This document shows positions 18,572-43,577 of a DNA stretch of 64,000 bases, piece by piece. A program made the translations under genes and the position numbers. The DNA is from Thermoanaerobaculia bacterium (GTDB lineage: Bacteria; Acidobacteriota; Thermoanaerobaculia; Gp7-AA8): the NCBI GenBank assembly GCA_035516895.1, contig DATIZY010000017.1, positions 3,472-67,471 of the forward strand, written 5' to 3'. The notes below the pieces were generated by a model. That model had not been told where the DNA came from and made no database searches. It saw only the letters and a list, made by a program, of their open reading frames with translations. How positions within the stretch are numbered: the stretch's first letter is position 1; each line of letters begins with the position of its first letter.

Positions 18572-18602
18572 TTGATCGATCTTCGTGTTCGTGCTTCGTG
18601 AG

Positions 18603-18630: not shown

Positions 18631-21265
18631 AAACCACGAACAACGGATCACTCTTCATCTCGCGCTCTCCGGCATCTTCTTTCTGTCCGGCGGCGCGTCG
18701 CTGCTGTTCGAGACGCTGTGGTTCCGCGAGTGCGGTCTCGTCTTCGGCAACAGCGCCTGGGCCTCCGCGATCGTCCTCGGCGCGTTCATGGCGGGCCTGG
18801 CGATCGGGAACCTGATCGCACCAGGACTTCGCGCTGAGCCGCTGCGCGTCTACGCTGCGATCGAGATCACGATCGGTGTCTGCGGCTTTCTTCTCGTCCT
18901 CGTTCTGCCGCTGCTTTCGCCCGCATTCGCGCCGCTGTTCCGGCATCTCCTCGATTCGCCGATGCTCAACGCGGCGCGCCTCGTCGGCGCGTTCGTGTTG
19001 CTCGTGATTCCGGCCACCGGAATGGGCGCAACGCTGCCAACGCTCGTTCGCGCGCTCTCTCGGCGCGACGAGAGCTTCGGCCGCGTCCTCGGCCTGCTCT
19101 ACGGGTTCAATACGATCGGCGCGGTCGCCGGCGCGCTCGCCGGCGAGCTGATTCTCATTCGCGCGCTGGGCGTCCGCGGCACGGGCGCGTTTGCGGCGCT
19201 CTGCTCGATCACGGCGGGCGTATTGGCGTCACGACTGCGTGGCGCCGGCTCTCAGCCGGCGCAGAGCCGGTTCAGAAGCGGCTCTACCCCGATACGCTTT
19301 CTCCTCGCTGCCGCCTGCTCCGGCTTCGCCCTGCTGGCGCTCGAAGTGATCTGGTTCCGCTTCGTCCTGTTTTTCGTCGTCTCGACGAGCATCGCGTTCG
19401 CCGTAATGCTGGCGGTCGTCCTGGCCGGGATCGGCATCGGCGCGCTCATCGCATCGACGATCTGGAATCGCTTTCCGGACGCCGACGCGTACACGCCCGT
19501 GGTCGCCGCGGGATCGGCGGCGGCACTCGTGCTCTGCTACAGCGGCTTTTCGCCGATGCCGGTCCGGCATCTCGCGTCGAGCATGTTCATCGACGGCGCG
19601 CGTCTGATGCTGCCGGTCAGCATCCTCTCCGGCATTCTCTTCACGTTCATCGGACGTGCCCTCGAGCGCGAGATCAACGACGAATCGCGCGCGGCGGCCC
19701 TGGTCACCTTCGCGAACACCGTCGGTGCGGCGTTCGGCCCGCTCGTCGCCGGCTTCGCCCTGATTCCGTCGATCGGCATCGAAGCGTCGTTCTTCGCGAT
19801 CGGCGTGCTGTACGTCGTCGTCGCGTTGCTCACGATGCGATCGCTGCGCGTCGCGATCGCCGCCGCGGCCATCGCTTCGCTCACGCTCGTCTTTTTTCCG
19901 TGGCACCTCTGGAGGAACTACTTCCTTCCGCTCGCGACGCATCCGTACCGCCAGACGCACATCGTCGCGGTGTCGGAGGCGCCGACGGAGACCGCGGTGT
20001 ACCTCGAAGAAGACATCGCCGGCGATCCGTACGTCTACACGCTCTACACCAATGGGTTTTCGATGTCGGGCACCGCGTTTCCCTCACGGCGCTACATGAG
20101 CATGTTCGTCTATCTGCCGATCGCGCTGCGTCCGCAAACGAAGAGCGCGCTGCTGATCAGCTACGGCGTCGGCATCACCGCGAAGACTCTCACGCGGACG
20201 AAGCAGCTCGAATCGATCGATGTCGTCGACATCTCCCGCTCGATCCTCGACCACGGCCGCATCATCTGGCCGGGCGCGTCGTATCCGCTCGCCGATCCGC
20301 GCGTGCACGTGCACGTCGAGGACGGCCGCTTCTTTCTGCTGGCCACGCCGAAACGTTTCGATCTGATCACTGCCGAGCCGCCGCCGCCGAAAAATGCGGG
20401 CATCGTCAATCTCTACACGCGCGAGTATTTCCAGCTCATGCACGACCGCCTGACCGATCGCGGCATCGCGTCGTACTGGCTGCCGGCCTATCAGATGTCG
20501 CAATCCGACAACCTGGCGATCATCCGCGCGTTCTGCGATGTGTTCGACGACTGCAGCCTCTGGACGGGCGCACGCGCGGAGTGGATTCTCGTCGGCAGCC
20601 GGGGAGCCGATACGGCGCCCAGTGAGGAGGATTTTTCGCGGCAGTGGAGCGATCCGGCGACCCGCGCGTCGCTCGTCCGCATCGGTGTGGAGCGGCCGGA
20701 TCAGATGGCGACGACATTTCTCGCCGACGCGCCGATCCTCGAGCGCCTCACCGCGAATGCGAAGCCGCTCACCGACGATCATCCGCTGCGGCTCAGCGCC
20801 GAGATTCCGGTCGGCCTCTGCGATCTGATCTACGAAGTCACCGGCAACGCGCCGCGCGCGTTTCTCACGAGCGATTTCATTCGCCGGATTCTGCCGCCGC
20901 GAATTCGTGCCGCGGCTCCGTCCGACTTTCGCGCGCAGCAGGTCTTCGACGCGACTCTCTACGCGGAGCTCGGCATGAAGTCGCCGCGATCGCCGGAGCT
21001 CGTCCGAGCGCTCGTGACCCAGACGAACCTTCGTGCGCTGCCGCGCCTCGTGATGGGCAGCGACTTCTGGCTCGAGGACATCGCGCTGCGCGCGCGTGCG
21101 CGCGGCAGCCGCGATCCCTATCTCGCGTACATCGCGGCCGTCGGCGCGCTCAGCGATCACGACTTCGCCCGCGCCCGCGACCTTTTCGCCGAGGCGCGGA
21201 GGGGGTTGCCGAAGGCGAGCGAGATTCCGCAGTACGAGGCGCTCGCGTCGTCGCTCGCGCGGTAG
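18614..21265 (+). CDS. Fused polytopic membrane (MFS-like) / spermidine-synthase-like protein
   Basis: About 12 predicted transmembrane helices in the N-terminal ~450 aa. The C-terminal part has a spermidine synthase (PABS)-like methyltransferase fold: ALLISYGVGITAKTL ... VDVVDIS ... DPRVHVHVEDGRFFL ... FDLITAEPPPP. Confidence 0.75.
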   Translation: MTLRTTNHEQRITLHLALSGIFFLSGGASLLFETLWFRECGLVFGNSAWASAIVLGAFMAGLAIGNLIAPGLRAEPLRVYAAIEITIGVCGFLLVLVLPLLSPAFAPLFRHLLDSPMLNAARLVGAFVLLVIPATGMGATLPTLVRALSRRDESFGRVLGLLYGFNTIGAVAGALAGELILIRALGVRGTGAFAALCSITAGVLASRLRGAGSQPAQSRFRSGSTPIRFLLAAACSGFALLALEVIWFRFVLFFVVSTSIAFAVMLAVVLAGIGIGALIASTIWNRFPDADAYTPVVAAGSAAALVLCYSGFSPMPVRHLASSMFIDGARLMLPVSILSGILFTFIGRALEREINDESRAAALVTFANTVGAAFGPLVAGFALIPSIGIEASFFAIGVLYVVVALLTMRSLRVAIAAAAIASLTLVFFPWHLWRNYFLPLATHPYRQTHIVAVSEAPTETAVYLEEDIAGDPYVYTLYTNGFSMSGTAFPSRRYMSMFVYLPIALRPQTKSALLISYGVGITAKTLTRTKQLESIDVVDISRSILDHGRIIWPGASYPLADPRVHVHVEDGRFFLLATPKRFDLITAEPPPPKNAGIVNLYTREYFQLMHDRLTDRGIASYWLPAYQMSQSDNLAIIRAFCDVFDDCSLWTGARAEWILVGSRGADTAPSEEDFSRQWSDPATRASLVRIGVERPDQMATTFLADAPILERLTANAKPLTDDHPLRLSAEIPVGLCDLIYEVTGNAPRAFLTSDFIRRILPPRIRAAAPSDFRAQQVFDATLYAELGMKSPRSPELVRALVTQTNLRALPRLVMGSDFWLEDIALRARARGSRDPYLAYIAAVGALSDHDFARARDLFAEARRGLPKASEIPQYEALASSLAR

Positions 21266-31238: not shown

Positions 31239-33716
31239 ATGGAGCTGTTGCATTTCGCAAAGAGCCGGCGCGGCGGAGAGCTGATCGGAATCGTCGTTCT
31301 CGCCGCCGGGATCAGCCTCGCCGCGGCCATCCTCACGTACCACCCGAACGATTCCTCCGCGTTCTACACCTCCACGAACACCACGATCTCGAACGCCATC
31401 GGCTACTACGGCGCGAGCGTCGCGTGGATCTTCGTCGGATTCTTCGGTTTCGGCAGCCTGCTCTTCCCGCTGTCGCTGCTCATCATCGGATGGCAGAAGT
31501 TCGTCGGACAAGAGCTCGAGTACCTGCAGACGAAGCTGATCGGATTCGTCACGCTCGTCGTCTCCGTCCCGCCGATGCTGCATTTGCTTTTCGGCAGCGT
31601 TTGGGTCCGCGGCGCGCTCCTCGCCGCCGGCGGCTACCTCGGACAGGAAATCGAGCGCACCGCAACCGCGAATCTCAATCGCCCCGGCGCGGCGATTCTC
31701 TTCGCCACGCTGATTCTCGTCGGCCTGTTGCTCGCGACGCGCATGAGCCTCGCGGCGACGTTAGGCGCGCTGCAGAAGAAGATCGTCGAAGGGCTGCGCG
31801 CGCTGTCGCTGCAGTGGGCCCGCCTGACGGAGCGCCGGCGCAAGGAGAAAATGAAGGAGGCCGTCGTGCGCAAGCACGCGCTTCGCCTCGTCGAGCCGGA
31901 CGAGATGCCGGCCGCGGCCCCGGAGAGCGGGCCCGTCGTGCGCGAGGTGAAAGGCGCCGGCCGATTTCAGATCCGCAAAGTGACGAAAGCCGATCTGCGG
32001 AAAGCCGCGGAAGCGCTTCAGGAAAATCCCGATCCGTTTTCGCTGTACGGCGGCGAAGGTGCAGCGACGGGCCTCAGCCCGTCGAACGGCGCCCTCAATG
32101 CCGCCGCCTCCAGCGACCGCGAAGAAATCGAAGAGCAATTCGAGGAGCCGCTGTTTCTCAGACCGAAGCCGCCGATTCCGCGGCCCGCGCCGAAGCGAGA
32201 GGCGAAACCGGCGAAGCGGGAGATGCGCTCGTGGAGCGATCAGCTGCCGTCGGTCGGTCTCCTGACCGCCGGACCGCAGCAGGACCAGATCAACGAGGAA
32301 GTCCACAGGAAGTTTCTCGAGATCGGGCATCTGATCGAGGAGAAGTGCCGCGAGTTTTCGGTCGACGGCGAGGTGACCGCCTACCATCCCGGTCCCGTCG
32401 TCACGACGTTCGAGTTCAAACCCTCCGCCGGCGTGAAGTACGCGAAGGTCGTGAATCTCGGCGACGACCTGGCGATGGCGCTCAAAGCGGAGTCGATCCG
32501 CATCGAGCGCATCTCCGGATCGTCGACGGTCGGCATCGAAGTTCCGAACCGCAAGCGCGACCGCATCATGCTGCGCGACGTCATCGATCACGAGAGCTTC
32601 GCGAACTCGACGACGCTCCTCACGCTCGCACTCGGCAAAGACATTCACGGCGAGCCGATCGTCACGGACCTCGCCCGCATGCCGCATCTGCTCGTCGCCG
32701 GCGCGACCGGCTCCGGCAAATCGGTCGGCCTCAACTCCATGATCGTCTCGCTGCTCTACAAAGCGCTGCCGCGGCAGCTCCGCATGCTGATGATCGATCC
32801 GAAGATGGTCGAGCTGAAGATCTACGAGGACATCCCGCATCTGCTGCATCCGATCGTCACCGATCCGAAGCTCGCATCGAATGCGCTCATCTGGGCGGTC
32901 GCCGAGATGGAGAATCGCTATCGCACGCTCGCCGAATGCGGCGTGCGCAACATCGATCAGTACAACGCTCTGCTCAAGGACCCCGAGGCGCATCGCCGCG
33001 CGCGCAAGGCGGCGCCGGACGATCCGACGCCGACTCCCGAGCCGATGCAGTACATCGTGATCATCATCGACGAGTTCGCGGATCTGATGATGGTCGCGCC
33101 GAAAGACGTCGAGGATTCGGTCACCCGGCTCGCGCAAAAGGCGCGTGCGGTCGGCATTCATCTGATCGTCGCGACGCAGCGGCCGTCGGTCGACGTCATC
33201 ACCGGCGTGATCAAAGCGAATTTCCCGTCGCGCATCGCCTATCAGGTCGCGTCGAAAGTGGACTCGCGCACCATCCTCGACACGCAGGGCGCCGAAAAGC
33301 TCCTCGGCTCGGGCGACATGCTGTTCCTTCCGCCGGGCACCGCGCGCATTCGCCGCATCCATGGCGCGTACGTTTCGGAGAAAGAGATCAACGACATCGT
33401 CGATTTCGTGAAGAAGAATCAGGGCGAGCCGAAGTTCCTCGAAGAGATCACGAGAGTCGCGGAAGAAAAGACCGCGGCCGACGGAATCGAATACCTCGAC
33501 GATCCGAAGTACGACGACGCCGTTCGCGTGGTGCTCTCGACCGGACAGGCTTCGGCGTCCTATCTGCAGCGCCGCATGAAGCTCGGCTACTCGCGCGCCG
33601 CGCGCCTGATCGAGATCATGGAAGCGAACCGCATCGTCGGGCCGTCGCAGGGTTCGAAGCCGCGCGAGATCCTGATCCGCGCCGAGGATTACCCGCCGGC
33701 GAGCGGACAGCTGTAG
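31239..33716 (+). CDS. ftsK: DNA translocase FtsK/SpoIIIE
   Basis: N-terminal transmembrane helices, a Pro/charged linker, Walker A LLVAGATGSGKSVGLN and Walker B IIIDEFADLM, and a C-terminal gamma (winged-helix) domain SYLQRRMKLGYSRAARLIEIME. Confidence 0.9.
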   Translation: MELLHFAKSRRGGELIGIVVLAAGISLAAAILTYHPNDSSAFYTSTNTTISNAIGYYGASVAWIFVGFFGFGSLLFPLSLLIIGWQKFVGQELEYLQTKLIGFVTLVVSVPPMLHLLFGSVWVRGALLAAGGYLGQEIERTATANLNRPGAAILFATLILVGLLLATRMSLAATLGALQKKIVEGLRALSLQWARLTERRRKEKMKEAVVRKHALRLVEPDEMPAAAPESGPVVREVKGAGRFQIRKVTKADLRKAAEALQENPDPFSLYGGEGAATGLSPSNGALNAAASSDREEIEEQFEEPLFLRPKPPIPRPAPKREAKPAKREMRSWSDQLPSVGLLTAGPQQDQINEEVHRKFLEIGHLIEEKCREFSVDGEVTAYHPGPVVTTFEFKPSAGVKYAKVVNLGDDLAMALKAESIRIERISGSSTVGIEVPNRKRDRIMLRDVIDHESFANSTTLLTLALGKDIHGEPIVTDLARMPHLLVAGATGSGKSVGLNSMIVSLLYKALPRQLRMLMIDPKMVELKIYEDIPHLLHPIVTDPKLASNALIWAVAEMENRYRTLAECGVRNIDQYNALLKDPEAHRRARKAAPDDPTPTPEPMQYIVIIIDEFADLMMVAPKDVEDSVTRLAQKARAVGIHLIVATQRPSVDVITGVIKANFPSRIAYQVASKVDSRTILDTQGAEKLLGSGDMLFLPPGTARIRRIHGAYVSEKEINDIVDFVKKNQGEPKFLEEITRVAEEKTAADGIEYLDDPKYDDAVRVVLSTGQASASYLQRRMKLGYSRAARLIEIMEANRIVGPSQGSKPREILIRAEDYPPASGQL

Positions 33717-33812
33717 GGCGGCCCGACCGGGCACCGCGTCGTTCCCGAGACCCGAAGTTCGTGCACGCGGCGCCGTTTGCAGGGTGGTGCTAACCTTCTC
33801 GCGTCAGTTTCC

Positions 33813-34523
33813 ATGATCCACCGGTACGAGAGCGCGCCGCAGCCACATCTAATCATCGAGGAAATCTTGCCGGCCGACGTTTATGCGTCGCTTCGATTTC
33901 CCGACCACCTGATCGCCGATGGTGAGGCCTGGGGCATTACGGCGAGCGATGACGCGTACGCGAAGGTGCTCGAGGACCCGGGGTGGCGCGCGCTGCACGA
34001 TCATTTGTGCGGGGAACAGTTCGTGATGGAAGTCCTGCGCGCATTCGCCGTGGACATGCAGCGCGAACGCTGCCTCGTCGATGCCCGCCGCGCGCGGCTG
34101 GTCCCTTTCAGCGAATCGCGCGCGGAGAAGGCGATGCGCACGCTTTCGGATCCCGCCGACCCGAACGAGATCTTCACGCGTCTCGATTTCCAGTCGAAGA
34201 AAGCGGGGGGCTACCGTGATTTCGTCCATCTCGACTGGGCACGGCGGATCACCGGCGGCATACTTTTTTTCTCCGATGCTGCCGAAGAAGACCTCGAAGG
34301 TGGCGAGCTCGCGTTCTATCGAGACCGCGATTTCCGTAATGATCGCTGGTGCCACGACCCGGAGCTCGTCACGCAATATGCTCCGCGGGCGAACAGCGGT
34401 GTGATTTTCCTCAACACCAACGGCGCGTTTCACGGCCCGCGGCCCATCGTGCGTTTGCGCGGACGCCGCCGGTGGCTGTACTACGCGATTTCCAGCCGCA
34501 TCGACGTCTGGCCGCACGACTGA
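33813..34523 (+). CDS. Putative 2OG-Fe(II) oxygenase-like protein (hypothetical)
   Basis: Candidate H-x-D...H triad (VHLDWAR ... AFHGP) within a double-stranded beta-helix-like pattern. Its stop overlaps the start of the downstream glycosyltransferase (TGATG). Confidence 0.4.
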   Translation: MIHRYESAPQPHLIIEEILPADVYASLRFPDHLIADGEAWGITASDDAYAKVLEDPGWRALHDHLCGEQFVMEVLRAFAVDMQRERCLVDARRARLVPFSESRAEKAMRTLSDPADPNEIFTRLDFQSKKAGGYRDFVHLDWARRITGGILFFSDAAEEDLEGGELAFYRDRDFRNDRWCHDPELVTQYAPRANSGVIFLNTNGAFHGPRPIVRLRGRRRWLYYAISSRIDVWPHD

Positions 34524-35656
34524 TGAACGTTCTTCTCGTCTGGAACGGGCCCGACAGCGACGAGGAGCGATCCGTGCTCGCGCGGCGCGAGATCGACTTT
34601 CTCCACCGCCTCCGCGAGCTGCATGTCGACGCATCGGTTGCACTCTTCGGAGATCGCGGAGGGCTCGCCGCCGATCTCAAAGCCGCCGGCATATCCACCT
34701 TCGTGCTGCCGACTGCGCTGCCGCCGGCCGCGCAATCGGTGACGCGCCTTCCCTTCGCCGCGGCCGGGCTGCGGAGACTCGTGAGGCGGCTTCGGCCCGA
34801 CGTGATCGAGGCGACGGAGCCGATGCCCGCGATCGCGGCGGGACTCGCGACCGTGGGACTTCGAGCATCCCGGGCGGTGATCTATCGCCGCCAGCACGCC
34901 GGCGGAAGGATGCGAGTGCGGCTTGCCGGCCGCGTCGCGGCGGGGCTCAATCACCGGACAATCGTCTCGTGCGAGGCGATGCGGGCACTCGCGTGCACCG
35001 ACGACCGATCGCGTGCCGCTCTCGTCGACATCGCGACGACAGGGTCAACGGTGCCCGCGGACGTCGATCCGGGCGACGTCGCCGCGGCGCGGCGCGCCCT
35101 CGGCATCGATGACGCCGCGCACGTCGTCGGCAGCATCGCGCAACTTCGGCATGAGAAAGGGATCGATGTGCTGATCCGCTGCCTCGAGCACATCGCTCTC
35201 GACGACGTGCATCTGGTGATCGCCGGCTGCGGACCGGAGGAGCGGAATCTTCGGCGGATCGCCGCGGCACAGCGCGTCCCGGTGCACTTTCTCGGGCATC
35301 GATCGGATATCTCCCTCTGGCTGCGGGCCGCGGACGTGATCGCCATTCCGAGCCGGCGGCAATCGGTCGGCCGCCTGACGCTCGAGGCAATGGCCGTCGG
35401 GAAACCTGTCGTCGCGTCGCGCGTGGGCGGCTTGCCGGAGGCGCTGATCGACGGCCAGAGCGGACTGCTCGTTGCGGCCGAGGATGAGGTAGCGCTCGCG
35501 GGGGCGTTGCGCGAAGTCCTCAGCGACCGGGCGCTTGCGACGCGACTGGGCGCCGGCGCGCACGAACGCTGGCGCTCGCGCTATACGATGGCACACATGG
35601 CCGCGTCCCGTGTCGCCGTGTGGCGGCGCGCTCTCGCCGCTCGGGAGAGAACGTGA
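34523..35656 (+). CDS. GT family 1 glycosyltransferase (GT4-type, GT-B fold)
   Basis: N-terminal MNVLLVWNGPDSD, C-terminal EAMAVGKPVVASRVGGLPE (the E-x7-E motif region) and QSGLLV. 377 aa. Confidence 0.8.
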   Translation: MNVLLVWNGPDSDEERSVLARREIDFLHRLRELHVDASVALFGDRGGLAADLKAAGISTFVLPTALPPAAQSVTRLPFAAAGLRRLVRRLRPDVIEATEPMPAIAAGLATVGLRASRAVIYRRQHAGGRMRVRLAGRVAAGLNHRTIVSCEAMRALACTDDRSRAALVDIATTGSTVPADVDPGDVAAARRALGIDDAAHVVGSIAQLRHEKGIDVLIRCLEHIALDDVHLVIAGCGPEERNLRRIAAAQRVPVHFLGHRSDISLWLRAADVIAIPSRRQSVGRLTLEAMAVGKPVVASRVGGLPEALIDGQSGLLVAAEDEVALAGALREVLSDRALATRLGAGAHERWRSRYTMAHMAASRVAVWRRALAARERT

Positions 35657-36723
35657 TCACGCTCTTCTGCGTTCGTCCGCGCGGCCTGAACGTCGGCAAC
35701 GATACGATCTTCGTCGGCCTTCGCCATCTGCTGCGCGGCGCGTTCGACGATCTCGTGAACATCGTTCAGATCGAGGCTGCCGGCGGCGCTCCGGGCGAGA
35801 GCGGGCTCGAAGCGCGCACGATTCACGAGATGAACCTGTACGGTCACGGCGTTGTGGTAGGCGGTGGCAATCTGTACGAGAACGGTCAGCTGCGCGTTGA
35901 TCCGAACGCCCTTCGGGCGCTTCGTCCTCCGCTGATGCTCTTCAGTTTGTCCTACGGCCGCGTCTACGACAGCCGCCACGAGCTCGTCCGGCGCACCGAC
36001 GCGATGCCGGAGCCGCTGGTCATCGAGCTGCACCGGCAGGCTGCGATCTCGGTCGCACGCGACGAAGCGACGCTCGCGTATCTCCGCTCCCTCTCGTTCG
36101 ACCGTCCGATCCTCGGCGGATGTCCGTCGCTGCTCGTGAACGACATTGACATTCCGGCGGCATCGTCTCCCGGCTGTCTTCTGGCAATCCGTCATCCCGC
36201 GCTCATGAGCGTGCCGCTCCGCGACCAGACACGGCTGCACGCCACGCTCGTCAATCTCATCAACGCACTGGAGGCGGACGGATTCGGCCCGGTTCGCATC
36301 CTCTGTCACGACACGCGCGACGTCGCGTTTGCGGCGTCGCTCGCCGACATCGAGTACGTCCTCGCGGACGACGTCTACGCGCAGCTGGCGATGCTGCGGG
36401 CAGCGCGTCTCGTGGTCACGTTCCGCCTCCACGCTTTTCTTCCATGCGTCAGCTTCGGGACGCCCGCGATCAATCTCAGCTACGACGAGCGGTCGATGAG
36501 CCTCGTGCGAACGATCGGCATGGAAAGCTGGGACATCGATCTGATTCGCAGCGGCGACGTCGTGGCCGAAGTCCGCAAACGATGTGCGAGGCTCGAGGAC
36601 TACGCAGCGATTCGAGACGCGACGGCGCAGCGGCGCAGCGAGCTCGCCGCGACGATGCGCGCGCAGATGGCCGAGTTCGCAGGCCTCGTCAGGGACTACG
36701 CGTCACTCCAGCCATCCCGATAA
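35653..36723 (+). CDS. Polysaccharide pyruvyl transferase family protein (CsaB/WcaK-like)
   Basis: N-terminal GLNVGNDTIFVGL (the G-x-N-x-GD/N motif of the PS_pyruv_trans family), length ~356 aa. GTG start overlaps the glycosyltransferase stop (GTGA). Confidence 0.65.
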   Translation: MITLFCVRPRGLNVGNDTIFVGLRHLLRGAFDDLVNIVQIEAAGGAPGESGLEARTIHEMNLYGHGVVVGGGNLYENGQLRVDPNALRALRPPLMLFSLSYGRVYDSRHELVRRTDAMPEPLVIELHRQAAISVARDEATLAYLRSLSFDRPILGGCPSLLVNDIDIPAASSPGCLLAIRHPALMSVPLRDQTRLHATLVNLINALEADGFGPVRILCHDTRDVAFAASLADIEYVLADDVYAQLAMLRAARLVVTFRLHAFLPCVSFGTPAINLSYDERSMSLVRTIGMESWDIDLIRSGDVVAEVRKRCARLEDYAAIRDATAQRRSELAATMRAQMAEFAGLVRDYASLQPSR

Positions 36724-37533
36724 ATCGCGTCCGATCAGCCGGCCGGTTGCGACGATGTCGTCGCGGTAAATGCCGATCAGGTGATTGCGAACCTCCGGGT
36801 CGATCCGCGGCGCCGGCCGGTACGTCCGGGCCAGGAGCGCTTCGATCATCCCCGTTCCCCGCCAGCGCCGCGGCACGAGCGATTGCAGCGCGACGACCGA
36901 CGGCCAGAGAACGCGGTTGAGCGCCCTCGAACGCGGGATGGCGGCCGCGTTGTGTCGTCGTGAAGGATCGATCGGAACGTCGGGATCGACACCGAGAAAC
37001 GCGAACAGCGATCGAAGGGCGATGCGAGGCCCGGACGCGAAATCGTCGTAGAGCATGACGTGAATCCGATCGCGCGCGAACCGATCGAAGTAGCGCTGCA
37101 GCCGGGGAAAGTAAAAGCCCCGTTCGCGGCAGGGCCGGCCGGGCGCCGTGGCCTCCTCGAAGCTTCCGTGCTCACGCAAAATTCGCGTCAAGCCGAGGTA
37201 GTCGGACCAGGCGCGGTCCGCGGGATTTCGAAGGCAAACGACGATCCGGACATCGGGCAGATCGCGACGGATGCGCTCCGCGGCGGTCGCGCTGTCGAGG
37301 TAGTTCGGTGAAATCTCGCCGATCGCGGTTTGATTCGTCACGCCATCGAAGAGCCGCTCGTAGTCGGCGAGCGCTTGTGCAGTCTCGCGGCCGTGCTCTC
37401 GCGCTTCGGTCCAGAAGAAGTTTGTCTCCTTGACCGGCGTCAGGTAGATCGCGGGATGCTGTCGAAGGTAGTGGTGCAGCGAGGTCGTGCCCGCCTTCGC
37501 CGCGCCGATGACGAGAAAATTCGGCCGCGTCAC
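36703..37533 (-). CDS. Sulfotransferase-family protein
   Basis: 5'-PSB motif PNFLVIGAAKAGTTSL (PxxxxGxxKxGTT) and 3'-PB motif VCLRNPADRAWSDY (RNPxDRxxS). GTG start overlaps the flippase stop (GTGA). Confidence 0.7.
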   Translation of the reverse strand: MTRPNFLVIGAAKAGTTSLHHYLRQHPAIYLTPVKETNFFWTEAREHGRETAQALADYERLFDGVTNQTAIGEISPNYLDSATAAERIRRDLPDVRIVVCLRNPADRAWSDYLGLTRILREHGSFEEATAPGRPCRERGFYFPRLQRYFDRFARDRIHVMLYDDFASGPRIALRSLFAFLGVDPDVPIDPSRRHNAAAIPRSRALNRVLWPSVVALQSLVPRRWRGTGMIEALLARTYRPAPRIDPEVRNHLIGIYRDDIVATGRLIGRDLSGWLE

Positions 37534-38903
37534 GTCCGCCGGACCTCGGCGAGGATCACGGCAACGTCTCCGCTCCGGACCAGAACGAAGAGGGCGAGGG
37601 CGAGCGCGGCGATCGCTCCGAGCGGTGCGCTCACTCGGGCGATTCCGACGCCGATGAGAGCCGCCGCGCCGATGAACAGGAGCGGTGCGTCCGCGAGGCC
37701 GATCTTCGCGAATCGCCGCATCGCGGTCATCAGGAGTCCGCGTCCGATCAGTCTGCCGATGAGGACTCCCGCCGCAACGCCGATCGCGCCGAAGCGCGCG
37801 AGGAGCGCCACCGCGAGGATCGTCGATCCGGCTCCGCGCGCCGTTACCCGGAAAAGCTCGGGCGCGTGGCCGGTGCAGAGGAGCGTCGAGCCGGCCGGTC
37901 CACTCGAGACGAGAACAGCGGCGGCGACCGAGAGCAGCACGAGCGGAGCGCCGCCGGCGCCCGCGTACGCCGGGCCGAAGATCGAGAGCATCACCTGCGG
38001 CGCGGCAATGCAGACGACGAGCAGAGGCAGCGCCAGCGTCAGCATCCATCGCGCGGCCGAATGGTAGTAGTGCGCGAGAAGCGTGCGATCGCTCGTCAGC
38101 GTGCGCATGAACGGCGTGGCCGCCGTCGTGATCGCGCCGTGAAGCAGCAGAAACGCCGAGGCGATTTTCTGCGCGACGGCGTAGCGAGCCACCTCGGTCG
38201 TCGCAGCAAACGCGCCGAGAATCAGAATGTCTGCCGATGCCGCGGCCTGATGCATCACGACCACGCCGAGCATCGACCGGCCGCTGCGAAGGAACGCGCT
38301 GCGGTCGAGCCGGCCGACGCGCCATCGCACGTGGAATCCGAAGAGCAGGGTCACCGCCCACGAGATCGCAAACGCAAGGGCGAAATTCGATGCGGCGGGC
38401 GATTGGGCGGACACGATCAGCGCGCCCGCCGCCGCGACCGCCGGTTGTACGACCGAATCCGCCGCTGCGGCGATGACCACATTACCGCTCGCGCGCAACG
38501 CGCCCGCGACATATTGACCGGCTGCCATGCACGGCAGCGCCGCCGCGAGCCAGAGGCCGAACGTCGGCAGCGCATGACCCGTGATCAAAGACCCGGCAAC
38601 GGTGGCCGCGGCGATTCCCGTGGAAGTGGCGACAACGACGATCGCACCGAATCGATTCGCTGCACCGTCGGGATTGATTGCGAGAAGCGCTTGATCGAGA
38701 CCCAGCCGCGCCGCCGGCGCGACGAACTGAAGAATGGTGAATCCGACGACGAAGCGTCCGAACTCATCGACCGGAATCGAACGCGCAACGGTCGCGTAGA
38801 AGACATAGGTGGCGAGGACATCGAAGCCACGGCCGGCGATCGTTGCCAACGTTCCCCGCGTGACGCCGCGGACGCGGAACGCCAGCTCCTCTGCTCCGCT
38901 CAC
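37530..38903 (-). CDS. Polysaccharide biosynthesis protein / oligosaccharide flippase (Wzx-like, MOP superfamily)
   Basis: About 12-14 transmembrane helices and the overall polysaccharide-transporter profile. 457 aa. Confidence 0.7.
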   Translation of the reverse strand: MSGAEELAFRVRGVTRGTLATIAGRGFDVLATYVFYATVARSIPVDEFGRFVVGFTILQFVAPAARLGLDQALLAINPDGAANRFGAIVVVATSTGIAAATVAGSLITGHALPTFGLWLAAALPCMAAGQYVAGALRASGNVVIAAAADSVVQPAVAAAGALIVSAQSPAASNFALAFAISWAVTLLFGFHVRWRVGRLDRSAFLRSGRSMLGVVVMHQAAASADILILGAFAATTEVARYAVAQKIASAFLLLHGAITTAATPFMRTLTSDRTLLAHYYHSAARWMLTLALPLLVVCIAAPQVMLSIFGPAYAGAGGAPLVLLSVAAAVLVSSGPAGSTLLCTGHAPELFRVTARGAGSTILAVALLARFGAIGVAAGVLIGRLIGRGLLMTAMRRFAKIGLADAPLLFIGAAALIGVGIARVSAPLGAIAALALALFVLVRSGDVAVILAEVRRT

Positions 38904-39316
38904 CGGCGGGCACCCGGGGAGTGTCGCATTTCGAAGTCGCGTCGGCCGCCCGCGAAACGTGCCGACAACCGCGCCCTAAACGGCGAGGTCGTGCGAGCGT
39001 GGTATCGGCAGACGCGCGCGTAGGCGTCCGCCGCGCCGCGCACGTAGAGTGTTGCGGTCGGGCCCGCCATCTGACGTACTCTCGCGGATGCAACGCGACG
39101 CGCGTCGCGATCGGATCTCGCGGAATGAATGCGTTCGATCAGCAGACGATGCTGCCGGTCCGCGATCGCGGCGACGCGCGAACACACGGAGTCCTGGCCG
39201 ATTGCTCCGATGAGAATGAACCCGGCGCCAAAATCGGCCTCGACCGTTGTCATCTCTCTCAGCGCCTCCCGATCGTTTGGATCGGGGAGAATGGCGACGC
39301 GGTTTGTCCTGGGCAT
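38900..39316 (-). CDS. Hypothetical protein (possible polysaccharide-cluster component); the ORF could extend to 39691
   Basis: Its stop overlaps the flippase start by 4 nt (ATGA). The C-terminal half is protein-like (VAILPDPNDREALREMTTVEADFGAGFILIGAIGQ). No family recognised. Confidence 0.3.
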   Translation of the reverse strand: MPRTNRVAILPDPNDREALREMTTVEADFGAGFILIGAIGQDSVCSRVAAIADRQHRLLIERIHSARSDRDARRVASARVRQMAGPTATLYVRGAADAYARVCRYHARTTSPFRARLSARFAGGRRDFEMRHSPGARR

Positions 39317-39796
39317 GTCGAGACGAACGTTCCGAAGCGGTCGCGTGATACTACACCGGCGCCGCTGGGCCGAGGTTCGCCTATCAAGCGGCACCGGCAC
39401 ATCCCTCGCACGCACGTACTCTCCACTCCGATGAGTTTCGAGTTGCTCTGGACGAACGCGGTCCACCATCGCCCGGTCGCACGCAACCTGCGGCCGCTCG
39501 TCGAAAGCGTGCATCGCGATCTCGTCGAGCGCAGCCCATCGCTCGGGCGCGACCTCGAGGCGCTCGTCGAATTTCTCGCCTCGGATTTCGGACGCACCGA
39601 CGCGAATTGCTGCGCCGTCGATCGCTTCTTCGCCGGGACGGAAGACCTGGGGCGGACTGCCCGAGCCGGTGCGTGCGATCTTCGCGGACATGAGCGGAAC
39701 GCTGCACGACGCGATTTACGCGCCGAACATCGCATCGACGTTCGACAGTCTTCCGGAGCAGCTCCTCACGCGCATCCGCGCGCTACAATTTCGTCG

Positions 39797-40093
39797 ATGA
39801 CCGCGTTTCTCGAAGCGACGGCGCTGCTGCTTCCGATCGACGCCGGCGGCCGCAGCGAGCCGATCGCGCCGCGCGAGGGCTCCTATCGCCCGCGCGCCGG
39901 ATCGATGCGCGTTCGTTTCATCGAAGGGCCGCCGTCGCTGGAGCCCGGCGGCTGCGCGCGAGTCGTCCTCGAAGTCGAGGAAGGTGTCGAAGCCGATCTC
40001 GCTCGCGGCAGCGAGCTGCCGATCATCGAAGACGATCGCATCGTCGGCATGCTCACCGTCACGCGGCTGTGGCGCAGCGCGATCGCGGTTTAG
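39797..40093 (+). CDS. Small hypothetical protein (beta-barrel-like, ~98 aa)
   Basis: In-frame ATG and protein-like composition (MRVRFIEGPPSLEPGGCARVVLEVEEG...IVGMLTVTRLW). Ends 10 nt before the deacetylase-family gene. Confidence 0.3.
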   Translation: MTAFLEATALLLPIDAGGRSEPIAPREGSYRPRAGSMRVRFIEGPPSLEPGGCARVVLEVEEGVEADLARGSELPIIEDDRIVGMLTVTRLWRSAIAV

Positions 40094-40102
40094 AATGGAA
40101 GC

Positions 40103-40969
40103 GTGATCGTTGGACGGGAGGGGAGACGCAGGCTCACGTCGCGGCGAAGCTCGTTCCGCACCATCGCCCTCCTCACGCTGATTCCGGTTTTCGCGCTCCT
40201 CGCGATTCTCGTCTGGAGCTTCATCGCGATGAACGTGCGCTTCCCGCTTCCCGCCGCGCACAAATCGCCGCTGAGGCCCGCGCCGCCGCCGGCCGCCGCC
40301 GTGCCGCATCGGGGAGACATCGTGCTGATCCTCGACGACGTCGGCTTCGACCATCAGCCGGTCGAGGAGGCCATGCGCATCGATCCGAACCTGAACTTCT
40401 CCGTGCTGCCGAACGCGGCGCACGCGCGTGAGGTGGCCACGCTGCTGCACGAGCATGGCTTCGAAGTTCTCTGCCATCTGCCGATGGAGCCGGAGCACTT
40501 TCCGCAAGTCTCGCCCGGATCGGGCGCGGTGCTGACGTCGATGACCGACGAAGAGATCGCGCGCACGACGATCGAGAACGTCGAATCCGTGCCGTACGCT
40601 CGCGGCGTGAACAATCACATGGGCTCGCGCGCGACCGCGGATTCGCGGGTCATGCAATCGGTGCTCTCTGCGCTGCCCGAGGACATGTATTTCATCGATT
40701 CGCGAACGACGCCCGATTCCGTCGCCGCATCTCTCGCGCATCGGATGCGCATTCCCGCAGCGACGCGCAATGTATTTCTCGACGACGTGCCGCACGACGA
40801 CGCGATCCGGCGCCAGCTCGAGGAGCTCGCGCGCGAGGCACACGCGCGCGGCGTCGCCATCGGCATCGGTCACATGTACCCGTCGACGATCCGCGTTCTC
40901 ACGGCCGAGGCGCCGGCGCTGCGGCGCGAGGGATTCCGGTTCGTTCGCGCGAGCCAGGCCGTGCGATGA
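40103..40969 (+). CDS. Divergent polysaccharide deacetylase family protein (YibQ-like)
   Basis: N-terminal transmembrane anchor, then IVLILDDVGFD, NFSVLPNA, EVLCHLPMEP and ARGVNNHMGS blocks characteristic of the divergent polysaccharide deacetylase family. Confidence 0.7.
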   Translation: MIVGREGRRRLTSRRSSFRTIALLTLIPVFALLAILVWSFIAMNVRFPLPAAHKSPLRPAPPPAAAVPHRGDIVLILDDVGFDHQPVEEAMRIDPNLNFSVLPNAAHAREVATLLHEHGFEVLCHLPMEPEHFPQVSPGSGAVLTSMTDEEIARTTIENVESVPYARGVNNHMGSRATADSRVMQSVLSALPEDMYFIDSRTTPDSVAASLAHRMRIPAATRNVFLDDVPHDDAIRRQLEELAREAHARGVAIGIGHMYPSTIRVLTAEAPALRREGFRFVRASQAVR

Positions 40970-41045
40970 TCGTCCGCCGCTCACCGCTGGCCGTTCGCCG
41001 AGCATCGGTTTCGGCCTGCGGGTCGCGGTCACCGGCCACCGACGG

Positions 41046-41765
41046 ATGCTTCTCGCGCTTTTCCTGATCGATCTCGCGGCGGGTCTCTATCTTTTCCTGC
41101 CGCTCGTCGGCCGGCGCAACGCCGGCGTGAAGTTTTATCGGCTGATCTTCGTCGTCAGCGGCGCACTCGTCCTTTGCTCGCTGATCGGGCATTGGACCGT
41201 CATCGATTCGATCATCATCGCGCTGACGCTCATCGTGTACTCGACGCTGCGTTATCCGAAGCGGCTCATCTTCCGCGTTCCCGTCGTTCTGCTCGGCATG
41301 GCGTACATCGCAGATGCGATCGCGCTCTGGCACGCCGCGACCGGATCGTCGTGGGCGTGGAGTGTCGCCGGCGCGATCTCCAGCATCGCTCTGCTGGGCT
41401 GCGTGAACCTCGCCATGCTCCTCGGCCACTGGTATCTCGTCGTGCGCGGAATGAGCATCGATCCGCTGAAGCGGCTGACGCACGCGACGCTCGCCGCCTC
41501 GATCGTGCGCGTGATCGTCGTTGCGATCGCGCTCCTCATGCCCGGCGTCTGGAATGCGATCGCGATCCGGCAGGGGATCTTCTTCTGGATGCGCGCCGGT
41601 TGGGGACTGGTCGGGCCGCTCGCGCTCTACCCGATGGTTTGGGGAACGGTGAAGATTCGCTCCACGATGGCGGCGACGGGGATTCTTTACGTCGACGTCG
41701 TTGCGGTCGTCATCGGCGAGGTGTTAGGCGCGTGGCTGTCGGCGCTCGGTCATCTGCCGCTGTAG
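41046..41765 (+). CDS. Hypothetical integral membrane protein (6-7 transmembrane helices)
   Basis: Strongly hydrophobic helical segments throughout. The upstream part of the ORF is Arg/Ser-rich and was discarded. Confidence 0.5.
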
Positions 41766-42971: not shown

Positions 42972-43529
42972 TTATCGCGCGCGCTCGATGTAGCGGTTCT
43001 CGCTGGGGTCGACGATGATCTCTTCGCCCGCGGTGACGAACGGCGGCACCTGCACGACGACGCCGTTTTCGAGCGTCGCAGGTTTGTACGACGCGGACGC
43101 CGTGGCGCCCTTCATCATCGGCTGCGTCTCGACGATCTTCGCTTTGACGGTCTTCGGCAGCTCGATGCCGAGCGGCCTTCCCTCGTAGAACTGCACCTGC
43201 AGCTTCACCCCGGGCGACAGCCACGCGGCGGAGTCGCCGAGGTCGTCTTCGGAGATCTCGATCTGCTCGTAATTCTCGGTGTTCATGAAGTGATGCGCAT
43301 GACCGTCGGAGTAGAGGTACTCCATCTCGTGCTGGTTGATGAAGGCCTGCTCGATTTCGTCCTGAGATCGGAAACGATGCTCGAACTGGTTGCCGGTGCG
43401 CAGGTTGCGCATCTTGACCTGGACCATCGCGCGGAGGTTGCCGGGCGTGTGGTGATGGAAATCGAGGACCTTGCAGAGGTCGCCGTTGAAGAGGACGACC
43501 ATTCCCTTGCGTAGATCATTTGCCTGCAT
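42972..43529 (-). CDS. efp: Translation elongation factor P
   Basis: NDLRKGMVVLFNGDLCKVLDFHHHTPGNLRAMVQVKMRNLRTGN (a KOW-like domain carrying the conserved modified Lys region), three-domain length of 185 aa. Confidence 0.9.
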   Translation of the reverse strand: MQANDLRKGMVVLFNGDLCKVLDFHHHTPGNLRAMVQVKMRNLRTGNQFEHRFRSQDEIEQAFINQHEMEYLYSDGHAHHFMNTENYEQIEISEDDLGDSAAWLSPGVKLQVQFYEGRPLGIELPKTVKAKIVETQPMMKGATASASYKPATLENGVVVQVPPFVTAGEEIIVDPSENRYIERAR

Positions 43530-43577
43530 GCGGCACCCCAAACGGCTGATTCAGCGGGCGTTATTCCAGTGGCGGCG

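What the first reader, a model, noticed from the sequence alone, without database searches (positions are those of the whole stretch)
33813..40969. Exopolysaccharide-modification cluster combining GT1, pyruvyl transferase, sulfotransferase, flippase and a YibQ-like deacetylase: a likely sulfated, pyruvylated glycan
Plus-strand genes (2OG-oxygenase-like, then GT family 1 glycosyltransferase, then pyruvyl transferase) are chained by overlapping stop/start codons (TGATG, GTGA). They converge on a minus-strand set (hypothetical, then Wzx-like flippase, then sulfotransferase), also chained by ATGA/GTGA overlaps. A divergent-type polysaccharide deacetylase follows. PAPS-dependent sulfotransferases with clear 5'-PSB/3'-PB motifs are uncommon in bacterial EPS loci, and pyruvylation plus sulfation together would yield a strongly anionic polymer. 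No polymerase (Wzy), chain-length regulator (Wzc) or priming transferase is present in this window, so the rest of the pathway must be encoded elsewhere.
Basis: partly seen in the sequence, partly recalled or inferred. Interest (0 to 1): 0.55.

Follow-up and report, generated by a model that had tools for sequence, protein, structure and literature searches.

The report
Inserted sugar-decoration cassette: pyruvate plus sulfate
A 5.7-kb inserted block of five genes in an uncultured soil acidobacterium most likely adds a sugar carrying pyruvate and sulfate groups to a cell-surface polysaccharide made elsewhere in the genome; sulfated polysaccharides are rarely reported in bacteria other than cyanobacteria, and the block's conserved core includes an oxygenase whose role is unknown.

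Summary
The five enzyme and transporter genes are real and are arranged as described. They are a 2OG dioxygenase, a "group 1" (CAZy GT4, not GT1) glycosyltransferase and a PF04230 pyruvyl transferase on the + strand, converging on a MOP flippase and a sulfotransferase on the - strand. The TGATG and GTGA overlaps are verified.

Two parts of the reading fail. The "hypothetical" ORF shadows a frameshifted + strand gene. The YibQ-like gene belongs to a housekeeping block (small98-YibQ-membrane protein-EF-P) that is conserved in about 80 relatives lacking the cassette. The true unit is window 33718-39416, an indel between ftsK and that block.

In relatives, the dioxygenase and pyruvyl transferase are always neighbours. 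A GT4 (Acidobacteriota) or GT2 (Solirubrobacterales) accompanies them. Variable add-ons include:
- HS-type or Stf0-type sulfotransferases, or an O-methyltransferase;
- MOP or ABC transporters;
- sometimes Wzy_C proteins and priming transferases.

The sulfotransferase has the 5'-PSB, 3'-PB and catalytic Glu motifs, and it groups with carbohydrate sulfotransferases.

Best reading: an accessory cassette that decorates a lipid-linked glycan. A sulfated, pyruvylated product is plausible but unproven. PAPS supply could not be checked. Moderately interesting.

The parts
33718..39416 (.). Extent of the inserted cassette (an indel relative to the closest relative that lacks it)
   Evidence: blastn against L028: window 33000-33717 aligns to L028 183-900 (88%) and window 39417-40970 aligns to L028 1941-3476 (78%). 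The 5.7 kb in between has no counterpart in L028; about 1 kb carrying an unrelated membrane-protein gene sits there instead. Six other relatives have ftsK 1.7-4 kb upstream of small98 with no cassette genes between them. No flanking repeats or mobility genes were found.
33813..34523 (+). Fe(II)/2-oxoglutarate dioxygenase-like protein (236 aa); first gene of the + operon and the best-conserved cassette member
   Evidence: Pfam 2OG-FeII_Oxy_3, 24.7 bits against a gathering score of 27. The family has 198 members at 63% identity or more, with invariant H139-x-D141...H207 and R218-R220. AF2 model pLDDT 89; the fold is a prolyl-hydroxylase-like DSBH, TM 0.4-0.55. No TM segment.
34523..35656 (+). 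Glycosyltransferase, Pfam 'group 1' / CAZy GT4-type (377 aa)
   Evidence: Glycos_transf_1 115 bits, Glyco_trans_1_4 114 bits, and weaker Glyco_trans_4_4 and Glyco_transf_4 N-terminal hits. No NCBIfam equivalog. The ATG overlaps the upstream stop codon, TGATG. Orthologs at 43-59% identity occupy the same position in acidobacterial loci.
35653..36723 (+). Polysaccharide pyruvyl transferase family protein (356 aa)
   Evidence: PF04230, 50 bits against a gathering score of 25.3. Weak CsaB (40.6 bits) and WcaK matches in NCBIfam. All 120 best relatives carry PF04230. Invariant R136, R180, R222, R258-L259-H260 and R280. AF2 model pLDDT 94 with a GT-B-type fold. GTGA start/stop overlap with the GT4 gene.
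36703..37533 (-). PAPS-type carbohydrate sulfotransferase (276 aa)
   Evidence: Sulfotransfer_3 60 bits and Sulfotransfer_1 41 bits. 100% identical to an NCBI 'sulfotransferase' from a Thermoanaerobaculia MAG. PDB: 3RNL at 1e-44, then heparan sulfate NDST and 3-OST at 5e-9 to 1e-6, with 5'-PSB, 3'-PB and catalytic Glu aligned. Its 3' end overlaps the pyruvyl transferase gene by 21 nt.
37530..38903 (-). MOP-superfamily (Wzx-like) flippase (457 aa)
   Evidence: Polysacc_synt_3, 31.8 bits against a gathering score of 23. Weak TuaB match. At least 9 hydrophobic segments. Orthologs at 50-64% identity lie directly upstream of the sulfotransferase in L003 and L004 and beside the pyruvyl transferase in L011. 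L024 has a MatE/Polysacc_synt_3 protein in the same place. GTGA overlap with the sulfotransferase start.

Best explanation
Window 33718-39416 is an accessory glycan-decoration cassette. It was horizontally acquired, or at least it is strain-variable.

All four enzymes lack membrane segments, so they should work in the cytoplasm on an undecaprenyl-phosphate-linked oligosaccharide whose priming transferase, polymerase and export machinery are encoded elsewhere. The proposed steps are:
1. The GT4 enzyme adds a side-chain or terminal sugar.
2. The PF04230 enzyme transfers pyruvate from PEP onto it as a ketal.
3. The HS-type sulfotransferase adds sulfate from PAPS.
4. The Fe(II)/2OG dioxygenase makes an oxidative change (probably a hydroxylation) that is tightly coupled to the pyruvyl-transferase step.
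5. The MOP-family protein flips the decorated unit to the outer face of the inner membrane.

The product would be a strongly anionic surface or extracellular polysaccharide.

Shown: gene identities, catalytic motifs, linkage across genomes, and the insertion boundaries. Inferred: the substrates, the order of steps, the role of the dioxygenase and the nature of the final polymer.
For: - Gene identities and motifs.
- Cytoplasmic enzymes plus a multi-TM MOP protein.
- Translational coupling within each arm.
- The dioxygenase and pyruvyl transferase are adjacent, or separated only by the GT, in every informative locus examined: L001, L002, L004, L005, L011-L016, L018, L019 and L022-L025.
- The sulfotransferase clade at 55% identity or more sits beside that operon in 5 of 6 related loci.
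- Sulfotransferases were recruited independently. Stf0-type (PF09037) enzymes flank GT2-dioxygenase-pyruvyl-transferase in the Solirubrobacterales loci L016 and L022.
- Lipid-linked-glycan machinery lies next to the module in other genomes:
  - L002: Wzy_C, a Glycos_transf_4/CoA_binding_3 priming enzyme and more GTs.
  - L016: Bac_transf priming transferase.
  - L018: ABC_membrane/ABC_tran exporter.
  - L014: UDP-sugar dehydrogenase, a GT and a Wzy_C-like protein.
  - L003, L004, L011, L024: MOP flippases.
- The accessory decorator is interchangeable. L024 has a TylF-type O-methyltransferase with the flippase where the window has the sulfotransferase.
- Insertion into conserved synteny.
- GC3 of the cassette genes is 0.75-0.79, against 0.83-0.89 for flanking housekeeping genes.
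Against: - There is no biochemical or compositional evidence. All carriers are uncultured MAGs.
- The module often stands alone, with no polysaccharide gene within 10 kb (L001, L005, L025), so the acceptor is unknown and need not be a polymer.
- PAPS synthesis genes are absent from the window, and the rest of the genome could not be examined.
- The pyruvyl-transferase assignment rests on a Pfam match and a residue pattern. A family profile does not reach the one solved pyruvyl transferase, and Foldseek returns only generic GT-B proteins in its top 50.
- The dioxygenase scores below Pfam's gathering threshold, and its fold matches give no substrate.
- The flippase is present in only about a quarter of the loci.
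Confidence: 0.6

Rival explanations
1. This is a fragment of one contiguous exopolysaccharide locus that includes the hypothetical gene and the YibQ-like deacetylase. The deacetylase acts on the same polymer, and the rest of the locus lies just outside the window.
For: All the named domains are present and lie next to each other. Polysacc_deac_2 is nominally a polysaccharide deacetylase.
Against: - The YibQ-like gene, with small98, a 7-TM protein and efp, forms a block conserved in about 80 related loci that lack every cassette gene.
- No relative carrying the cassette has YibQ beside it.
- The 'hypothetical' is an orphan shadow ORF.
- The 30 kb on either side of the cassette are housekeeping genes with no polysaccharide functions.
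Confidence: 0.08
2. The module makes or modifies a non-polymeric glycoconjugate, for example a sulfated and pyruvylated glycolipid or a small glycoside, rather than a polysaccharide repeat unit.
For: - The three- or four-gene module frequently stands alone, without a flippase, polymerase or priming enzyme nearby (L001, L005, L025, L023).
- The Stf0 family that accompanies it in actinobacterial loci is, from my own knowledge, the family of the mycobacterial trehalose sulfotransferase that starts sulfolipid synthesis (Pfam name).
- The best NCBIfam matches of the GT4 include small-acceptor enzymes (MshA, BshA, GlcN-PG synthase), although far below their cut-offs.
Against: - Where neighbours are informative, they are lipid-linked-oligosaccharide machinery: Wzy_C, Bac_transf, Glycos_transf_4, and MOP or ABC flippases.
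- No lipid or scaffold biosynthesis genes (PKS, acyltransferase pairs) accompany the module.
- PF04230 enzymes characterised so far act on glycans or lipid-linked saccharides (PMC6801904, PMC10435577).
Confidence: 0.15
3. The dioxygenase is a protein prolyl hydroxylase, and the GT, pyruvyl transferase and sulfotransferase build a glycan on the resulting hydroxyproline of a cytoplasmic or secreted protein. The analogy, from my own knowledge, is the eukaryotic Skp1 hydroxyproline glycosylation pathway.
For: - The top Foldseek matches are prolyl 4-hydroxylases and the ribosomal and EF-Tu prolyl hydroxylases: 6iuq, 4j25, OGFOD1 4nhx and Tpa1.
- All the enzymes are soluble.
- The dioxygenase is first in the operon and is the most conserved member.
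Against: - TM-scores are only 0.3-0.55 at 12-20% identity, which shows shared DSBH architecture and not a shared substrate.
- Sugar-acting 2OG enzymes (PolD, PasI) score equally well.
- No candidate target protein is conserved next to the module.
- Flippases and priming transferases recur beside it.
Confidence: 0.07
4. The cassette in this genome is a decaying or silent acquisition with no current function.
For: - It sits in a variable slot.
- The adjacent conserved 128-aa gene is frameshifted.
- A clearly degraded copy exists in L021, where a deletion fuses a truncated dioxygenase to a truncated pyruvyl transferase and removes the GT4.
- No sigma-70-like promoter was detected.
Against: - All five ORFs are intact and full length relative to their orthologs.
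- They keep every invariant catalytic residue.
- Stop/start coupling is preserved.
- Three other assembly records (L008, L009, L027) carry the cassette at 99.6-100% protein identity; L026 carries only its flippase end.
- The promoter scan is uninformative for this phylum.
Confidence: 0.05

Closest known systems
Synechocystis sp. PCC 6803 xss cluster (synechan, a sulfated exopolysaccharide; Maeda et al. 2021, PMC8205485)
   Same: PF00685/PF13469-type sulfotransferases sit among glycosyltransferases and a Wzx flippase. Sulfation is presumed to happen on the lipid-linked repeat unit before flipping.
   Different: xss is a complete cluster of about 19 genes with eight GTs, Wzy, PCP and its own regulators. 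The paper does not mention pyruvylation (0 occurrences) and lists no 2OG dioxygenase among the cluster's genes. Here there is one GT, no polymerase or PCP, and a dioxygenase/pyruvyl-transferase core. The host is an acidobacterium, whereas that paper states that sulfated polysaccharides are scarcely known outside cyanobacteria.
Ketal-pyruvyl transferases of PF04230: CsaB (Paenibacillus alvei), Pvg1p (S. pombe), WcaK, GumL, ExoV (PMC10435577, PMC4872226, PMC6801904)
   Same: The Pfam family is the same and the match is above the gathering score. The predicted fold is GT-B-like, as reported for Pvg1p. An invariant R...R-x-H...(20 residues)...R pattern resembles CsaB R148/R306/H308/K328 and Pvg1p R217/R337/H339/K361.
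   Different: The relationship is very distant: CsaB NCBIfam scores 40.6 bits against a cut-off of 213, and there is no profile hit to 5AX7. In the sources read here, none of the characterised enzymes is described as paired with a 2OG dioxygenase or a sulfotransferase.
Heparan sulfate N-sulfotransferase (NDST) and 3-O-sulfotransferases, and the uncharacterised bacterial sulfotransferase 3RNL
   Same: The 5'-PSB (GxxKxGTT), 3'-PB (RNPxDRxxS) and catalytic Glu align. 3RNL aligns end to end at E = 1e-44.
   Different: The matches to the animal enzymes have E-values of only 5e-9 to 1e-6. The acceptor-binding regions do not align. 3RNL has no known substrate.
Actinoplanes missouriensis wps-1 cluster (PMC13390465)
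   Same: A non-cyanobacterial Wzx/Wzy-type locus with two sulfotransferases, one of them heparan-sulfate type. It is proposed, but not shown, to make a sulfated polysaccharide.
   Different: That locus is complete, with Wzx, Wzy and Wzz. The paper does not mention pyruvyl transferases (0 occurrences) and the passages read list no 2OG dioxygenase. It is in a different phylum.
KdoO, the Fe(II)/2OG dioxygenase that hydroxylates Kdo of LPS (own knowledge: Chung and Raetz 2011)
   Same: It sets a precedent for a soluble 2OG dioxygenase modifying a lipid-anchored sugar acid at the cytoplasmic face, at a carbon derived from PEP/pyruvate.
   Different: No sequence relationship was detected here: no Kdo_hydroxy Pfam hit. 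The substrate of the window's enzyme is unknown.

Membership tests
PAPS-dependent sulfotransferase fold (PF00685 / PF13469) | Profile match above the curated threshold | tested here: met
   Sulfotransfer_3 60.4 bits (GA 27) and Sulfotransfer_1 41.1 bits (GA 22).
PAPS-dependent sulfotransferase fold (PF00685 / PF13469) | 5'-phosphosulfate-binding loop (GxxKxGTT) and 3'-phosphate-binding motif (R...S) | tested here: met
   G10AAKAGTTS18 aligns with NDST GPQKTGTTA, and R102NPADRAWS110 aligns with NDST INPADRAYS.
PAPS-dependent sulfotransferase fold (PF00685 / PF13469) | Catalytic base (Glu in NDST and 3-OST) | tested here: met
   E73 in G-E-I-S-P-N-Y aligns with the E of NDST F-E-K-S-A-N-Y. That this Glu is the catalytic base is from my own knowledge.
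PAPS-dependent sulfotransferase fold (PF00685 / PF13469) | Carbohydrate rather than small-molecule acceptor | tested here: inconclusive
   The nearest characterised solved relatives are all heparan sulfate enzymes, and no cytosolic SULT has E <= 0.01. The genomic neighbours are GTs. The acceptor site itself was not compared.
PAPS-dependent sulfotransferase fold (PF00685 / PF13469) | Donor supply: APS kinase and ATP sulfurylase in the same genome | not testable with these tools
   Absent from the 64-kb window.
Polysaccharide pyruvyl transferase (PF04230) | Profile match above the curated threshold | tested here: met
   50 bits against GA 25.3, covering model positions 1-279 of 280. All 120 best relatives carry PF04230.
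Polysaccharide pyruvyl transferase (PF04230) | PEP-binding Arg, Arg-x-His and Lys/Arg residues as defined in CsaB and Pvg1p | tested here: inconclusive
   Invariant R136, R258-L259-H260 and R280, with H-to-R spacing of 20 as in CsaB H308-K328 (PMC10435577). The correspondence is by pattern only, because no alignment to CsaB or Pvg1p could be produced.
Polysaccharide pyruvyl transferase (PF04230) | Structural similarity to the solved pyruvyl transferase Pvg1p (5AX7) | tested here: inconclusive
   The model (pLDDT 94) has a GT-B-type fold, as Pvg1p is reported to have. However, the 50 listed Foldseek hits are epimerases and GTs, not 5AX7 (PMC4872226).
Fe(II)/2-oxoglutarate dioxygenase superfamily | HxD/E...H iron-binding triad and a basic residue for the 2OG C5 carboxylate | tested here: met
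   H139, D141, H207 and R218-R220 are invariant in 37 sequences.
Fe(II)/2-oxoglutarate dioxygenase superfamily | Double-stranded beta-helix fold | tested here: met
   AF2 pLDDT 89, pTM 0.89. There are 69 PDB matches at E <= 1e-3, and nearly all of the 50 listed are 2OG oxygenases.
Fe(II)/2-oxoglutarate dioxygenase superfamily | Pfam family-level membership (2OG-FeII_Oxy_3) | tested here: not met
   24.7 bits, below GA 27. Only some relatives carry a precomputed PF13640 hit. It is therefore a superfamily member outside the curated family boundaries.
MOP/Wzx-type lipid-linked oligosaccharide flippase | Profile match and a polytopic membrane topology | tested here: met
   Polysacc_synt_3 31.8 bits (GA 23). 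At least 9 strongly hydrophobic 19-mers in 457 aa. Flipping activity was not tested.
Complete Wzx/Wzy-dependent polysaccharide locus | Priming phosphoglycosyl transferase, Wzy polymerase, PCP/Wzc and OPX/Wza encoded together | tested here: not met
   None is present in the window. They occur beside the module only in some other genomes.
Cluster membership of the YibQ-like Polysacc_deac_2 gene | Conserved co-location with the other cluster genes | tested here: not met
   It is absent beside the module in all the module-carrying related loci examined. It is present without the module in about 80 loci, always with the same housekeeping neighbours.

The most novel reading that the evidence does not exclude
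The invariant, translationally coupled pair of a 2OG dioxygenase and a PF04230 enzyme carries out chemistry not yet described for glycans. For example, the dioxygenase might hydroxylate or oxidatively remodel the pyruvate ketal (or the carbon next to it), creating the position that the recurrently recruited sulfotransferases (HS type in Acidobacteriota, Stf0 type in Solirubrobacterales) or O-methyltransferases then cap. The module would then define a new class of anionic glycan substituent shared by two phyla through horizontal transfer.
Probability: 0.15. Interest if true: 0.7.

Novelty: new variant of a known kind. Interest (0 to 1): 0.45.

Why it matters
Sulfated polysaccharides are valued biomaterials, and the literature I read regards them as almost exclusive to cyanobacteria among bacteria (PMC8205485, PMC13390465). 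A compact, portable cassette that pairs pyruvylation with sulfation in soil Acidobacteriota and Actinomycetota would widen that picture. It would also offer a small gene set for engineering highly anionic glycans. In addition, it flags an uncharacterised, highly conserved 2OG dioxygenase family (about 200 clusters at 63% identity or more) whose strict partnership with a pyruvyl transferase gives a concrete, testable lead on its function. For genome annotation, the case shows how a shadow ORF and a housekeeping 'polysaccharide deacetylase' can be wrongly drawn into a glycan locus.

Tried and rejected
1. Sequence search of the pyruvyl transferase and the dioxygenase against PDB chains gave no usable hits. 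A profile of the pyruvyl-transferase family also gave none.
2. Foldseek with the pyruvyl-transferase model returned only generic GT-B proteins, so it could neither confirm nor refute similarity to Pvg1p.
3. Foldseek with the dioxygenase model gave a prolyl-hydroxylase-like DSBH but no substrate clue.
4. NCBIfam gave no equivalog for any cassette protein.
5. Rfam on the whole window gave nothing. The promoter and terminator scan of the cassette was at background level.
6. The repeat search at the island edges found only a 31-nt, 71%-complementary pair (33699-33729 and 39055-39085). I regard it as chance in 66% G+C DNA. There is no integrase or transposase at the edges.
7. I considered that L021 might be a natural dioxygenase/pyruvyl-transferase fusion. 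It is a deletion remnant lacking the distal His and the GT4.
8. I considered a link to the nearby efp gene (EF-P modification). I rejected it because the cassette lies next to efp only in this strain.
9. Literature searches for a known pyruvyl-transferase plus sulfotransferase locus, or for EPS in Thermoanaerobaculia, found nothing specific.

Full report
**Source and gene calls**

The window has about 65% G+C. Its sulfotransferase is 100% identical to an NCBI protein from a Thermoanaerobaculia (Acidobacteriota) metagenome-assembled genome. I called genes from third-position G+C, and the calls agree with those on record for an independent assembly of the same sequence (L008).

**The observation**

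Pfam confirms these genes:

| Window coordinates | Strand | Identity | Score |
|---|---|---|---|
| 33813-34523 | + | 2OG-oxygenase-like protein | 24.7 bits, just under the gathering score of 27 |
| 34523-35656 | + | Glycos_transf_1 (CAZy GT4-type) glycosyltransferase | 115 bits |
| 35653-36723 | + | PF04230 pyruvyl transferase | 50 bits |
| 36703-37533 | - | sulfotransferase | 60 and 41 bits |
| 37530-38903 | - | Polysacc_synt_3 membrane protein | 31.8 bits |
| 40103-40969 | + | Polysacc_deac_2 (YibQ-like) protein | 236 bits |

The junctions read TGATG, GTGA, GTGA and GTGA. The two arms converge with a 21-nt overlap. The four enzymes have no hydrophobic segments, and the flippase has at least nine.

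The sulfotransferase aligns end to end with the uncharacterised bacterial structure 3RNL (E = 1e-44). It then aligns with heparan sulfate NDST and 3-O-sulfotransferases. The 5'-PSB loop (G10AAKAGTTS18), the catalytic-Glu region (E73) and the 3'-PB motif (R102NPADRAWS110) are all in register. No small-molecule SULT appears at E <= 0.01.

I scanned every credible ORF in the 64 kb and found no Wzy, Wzc, Wza, priming transferase or PAPS-synthesis gene.

**What is not right in the observation**

The 'hypothetical' ORF (38900-39691, - strand) has no relative among 1.84 billion representative proteins except a fragment of itself. On the opposite strand, 39437-39658 (frame +2) and 39648-39779 (frame +3) encode, at 66-70% identity, a protein of about 128 aa. 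That protein sits immediately upstream of small98 in at least eight related loci. In the window it is split by a +1 frameshift, and two other assemblies show the same split. The 'hypothetical' is therefore largely the antisense shadow of a frameshifted gene.

The 98-aa ORF at 39797-40093 is real. It is conserved at 50-79% identity ahead of the YibQ-like gene in many relatives.

The YibQ-like gene belongs to the block small98 - YibQ - 7-TM protein - (aldo-keto reductase) - EF-P. That block recurs in about 80 metagenomic loci at 63-100% YibQ identity, and none of them, other than the window's own strain, carries any cassette gene. Conversely, none of the related loci that carry the cassette has YibQ beside it.

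**True extent**

In six relatives, ftsK lies 1.7-4 kb upstream of small98 with other genes in between. At the DNA level:
- window 33000-33717 matches the closest cassette-free relative, L028, at 88%;
- window 39417-40970 matches L028 at 78%;
- the 5.7 kb in between is replaced in L028 by about 1 kb carrying an unrelated membrane-protein gene.

The unit is thus an indel at window 33718-39416 inside conserved housekeeping synteny. No flanking repeats or mobility genes were found. The third-position G+C of the cassette genes (0.75-0.79) is lower than that of the neighbours (0.83-0.89).

**Comparative anatomy**

I fetched loci through sulfotransferase homologs, through dioxygenase homologs and through a scan of 185,579 species genomes with a dioxygenase alignment. 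That scan gave 13 loci, all from MAGs:
- Thermoanaerobaculia, Vicinamibacterales and other Acidobacteriota;
- five loci from Solirubrobacterales (Actinomycetota).

tblastn tabulation and Pfam scans give a clear hierarchy:

1. **The invariant pair.** The dioxygenase and the pyruvyl transferase are together in every informative locus.
2. **The glycosyltransferase.** A GT always accompanies them. In Acidobacteriota it is a GT4 placed between them. In all six Solirubrobacterales-type loci it is a GT2 placed upstream.
3. **The variable decorating enzyme.**
   - The window's HS-type sulfotransferase is used in L001, L002, L004, L005 and L013.
   - Two Stf0-type sulfotransferases (PF09037) flank the trio in L016 and L022.
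   - L024 has a TylF-type O-methyltransferase.
4. **The variable export and assembly partners.**
   - MOP flippases: window, L003, L004, L011, L024.
   - An ABC_membrane/ABC_tran protein: L018.
   - Wzy_C with a Glycos_transf_4/CoA_binding_3 priming enzyme and more GTs: L002.
   - A Bac_transf priming enzyme: L016.
   - A UDP-sugar dehydrogenase, a GT and a Wzy_C-like protein: L014.
5. **Stand-alone copies.** In several genomes the trio or quartet stands alone among unrelated genes (L001, L005, L025).

L021 holds a decayed copy. A deletion there joins dioxygenase residues 1-203 to pyruvyl-transferase residues 107-356.

**The proteins**

*Dioxygenase.* The family has 198 hits, all of the listed ones at 63% identity or more. 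H139-x-D141, H207 and R218-R220 are invariant. A confident AlphaFold model (pLDDT 89) has the double-stranded beta-helix fold. Its best PDB matches are prolyl hydroxylases, but also the sugar-acid-acting PolD and PasI. TM-scores are only 0.3-0.55. I conclude that it is an active 2OG dioxygenase of unknown substrate.

*Pyruvyl transferase.* The subfamily has 625 hits, and all of the top 120 carry PF04230. R136, R180, R222, R258-L259-H260 and R280 are invariant. The R-x-H motif followed by a basic residue 20 positions later mirrors CsaB R306/H308/K328 and Pvg1p R337/H339/K361 (PMC10435577, PMC4872226).

I could not align this family to either enzyme. Foldseek gave only generic GT-B proteins. That is compatible with the GT-B-like fold reported for Pvg1p, but it is not specific.

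*Other libraries.* NCBIfam gave no equivalog for any cassette protein.

**Mechanism**

The most economical reading has soluble enzymes decorating an undecaprenyl-phosphate-linked saccharide at the cytoplasmic face:
1. the GT adds a sugar;
2. the PF04230 enzyme adds a pyruvate ketal from PEP;
3. the sulfotransferase adds sulfate from PAPS;
4. the dioxygenase performs an oxidative step tied to the pyruvyl-transferase step;
5. the MOP protein flips the product.

Priming, polymerisation and export are supplied from elsewhere in the genome.

Gene identities, motifs, linkage and boundaries are shown. Substrates, step order and product are inferred.

The association of sulfotransferases from two unrelated families with the same pair in two phyla is the strongest argument that sulfation and pyruvylation fall on the same glycan. 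I give this reading 0.6.

The rivals are:
- a non-polymeric glycoconjugate (0.15);
- hydroxyproline-linked protein glycosylation (0.07);
- a silent, decaying acquisition (0.05).

**Comparison with what is known**

The closest described systems are:
- the cyanobacterial xss/synechan cluster, which has sulfotransferases, GTs and Wzx/Wzy/PCP; the paper does not mention pyruvylation and lists no dioxygenase (PMC8205485);
- the Actinoplanes wps-1 cluster (PMC13390465);
- the classical pyruvyl transferases CsaB, WcaK and Pvg1p.

Both papers state that sulfated polysaccharides are essentially confined to cyanobacteria among bacteria.

The present module differs in three ways. It is a small accessory cassette. 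It combines pyruvylation with sulfation. It is built around an uncharacterised dioxygenase.

I class it as a new variant of a known kind. It is moderately interesting because the prediction is well supported by comparative genomics, but it rests entirely on uncultured genomes and has no chemistry behind it. PAPS supply in this genome remains unchecked.

Noticed in passing
window 39437-39779 (+), overlapping the called ORF 38900-39691 (-): A conserved gene of about 128 aa ('...NLRPLVESVHRDL...GRTDANCC.VDRFF...') is found upstream of small98 in at least eight relatives. In the window it is split by a +1 frameshift near 39650, and the same split is seen in two other assemblies (L026, L027). Gene callers instead call a 263-aa orphan on the opposite strand.
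   Followed up: yes
window 39797-40093 (+), 40103/40229-40969 (+), 41046-41765 (+), 42972-43550 (-): A conserved housekeeping block consists of a 98-aa protein with no Pfam or NCBIfam match, a YibQ-like Polysacc_deac_2 protein, a 7-TM protein with no Pfam or NCBIfam match, (an aldo-keto reductase) and EF-P. It recurs in about 80 related metagenomic loci. The slot between ftsK and this block varies in content between relatives.
   Followed up: partly
L016 6595-11110 and L022 7836-12242 (the same Solirubrobacterales MAG): There are two paralogous copies of the arrangement Stf0-type sulfotransferase - GT2 - 2OG dioxygenase - pyruvyl transferase - Stf0-type sulfotransferase. In L016 the next gene is a Bac_transf priming transferase fused to an ATP-grasp domain. 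The dioxygenase is 63-67% identical to the acidobacterial one, which suggests transfer between phyla.
   Followed up: partly
L021 9767-11266: A single ORF joins dioxygenase residues 1-203 to pyruvyl-transferase residues 107-356, and the GT4 gene is deleted. It is a decayed copy of the cassette, not a functional fusion.
   Followed up: yes
L024 4475-9802: A sulfate-type ABC uptake operon (porin, SBP_bac_11, two BPD_transp_1 proteins, and an ABC ATPase with a CysA C-terminal domain) lies immediately upstream of a cassette copy that carries an O-methyltransferase rather than a sulfotransferase.
   Followed up: no
window 57792-58799 (+): An ORF has a weak IS200-like Y1 transposase match (25.4 bits). 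It is the only mobility-related signal in the window and lies about 18 kb from the cassette.
   Followed up: no
window 11067-16700 (-): A very long ORF (1877 aa) has only faint Ig-like and fn3-like matches. It is probably a large surface or secreted repeat protein.
   Followed up: no
window 18602-21265 (+): An 887-aa protein has 11 predicted membrane segments fused to a spermidine-synthase-like domain. It follows a PilT/T2SSE-type ATPase gene.
   Followed up: no
L044 6607-8148, L049 5348-6742, L041 885-2471, L043 1737-3278: In several relatives the ftsK-small98 slot holds a multi-TM protein with a 464-528-codon stop-to-stop reading frame ('...FPTQDGPSHLYNAFVLAHYFD...'). It was not annotated further, and the window has no counterpart to it.
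   Followed up: no
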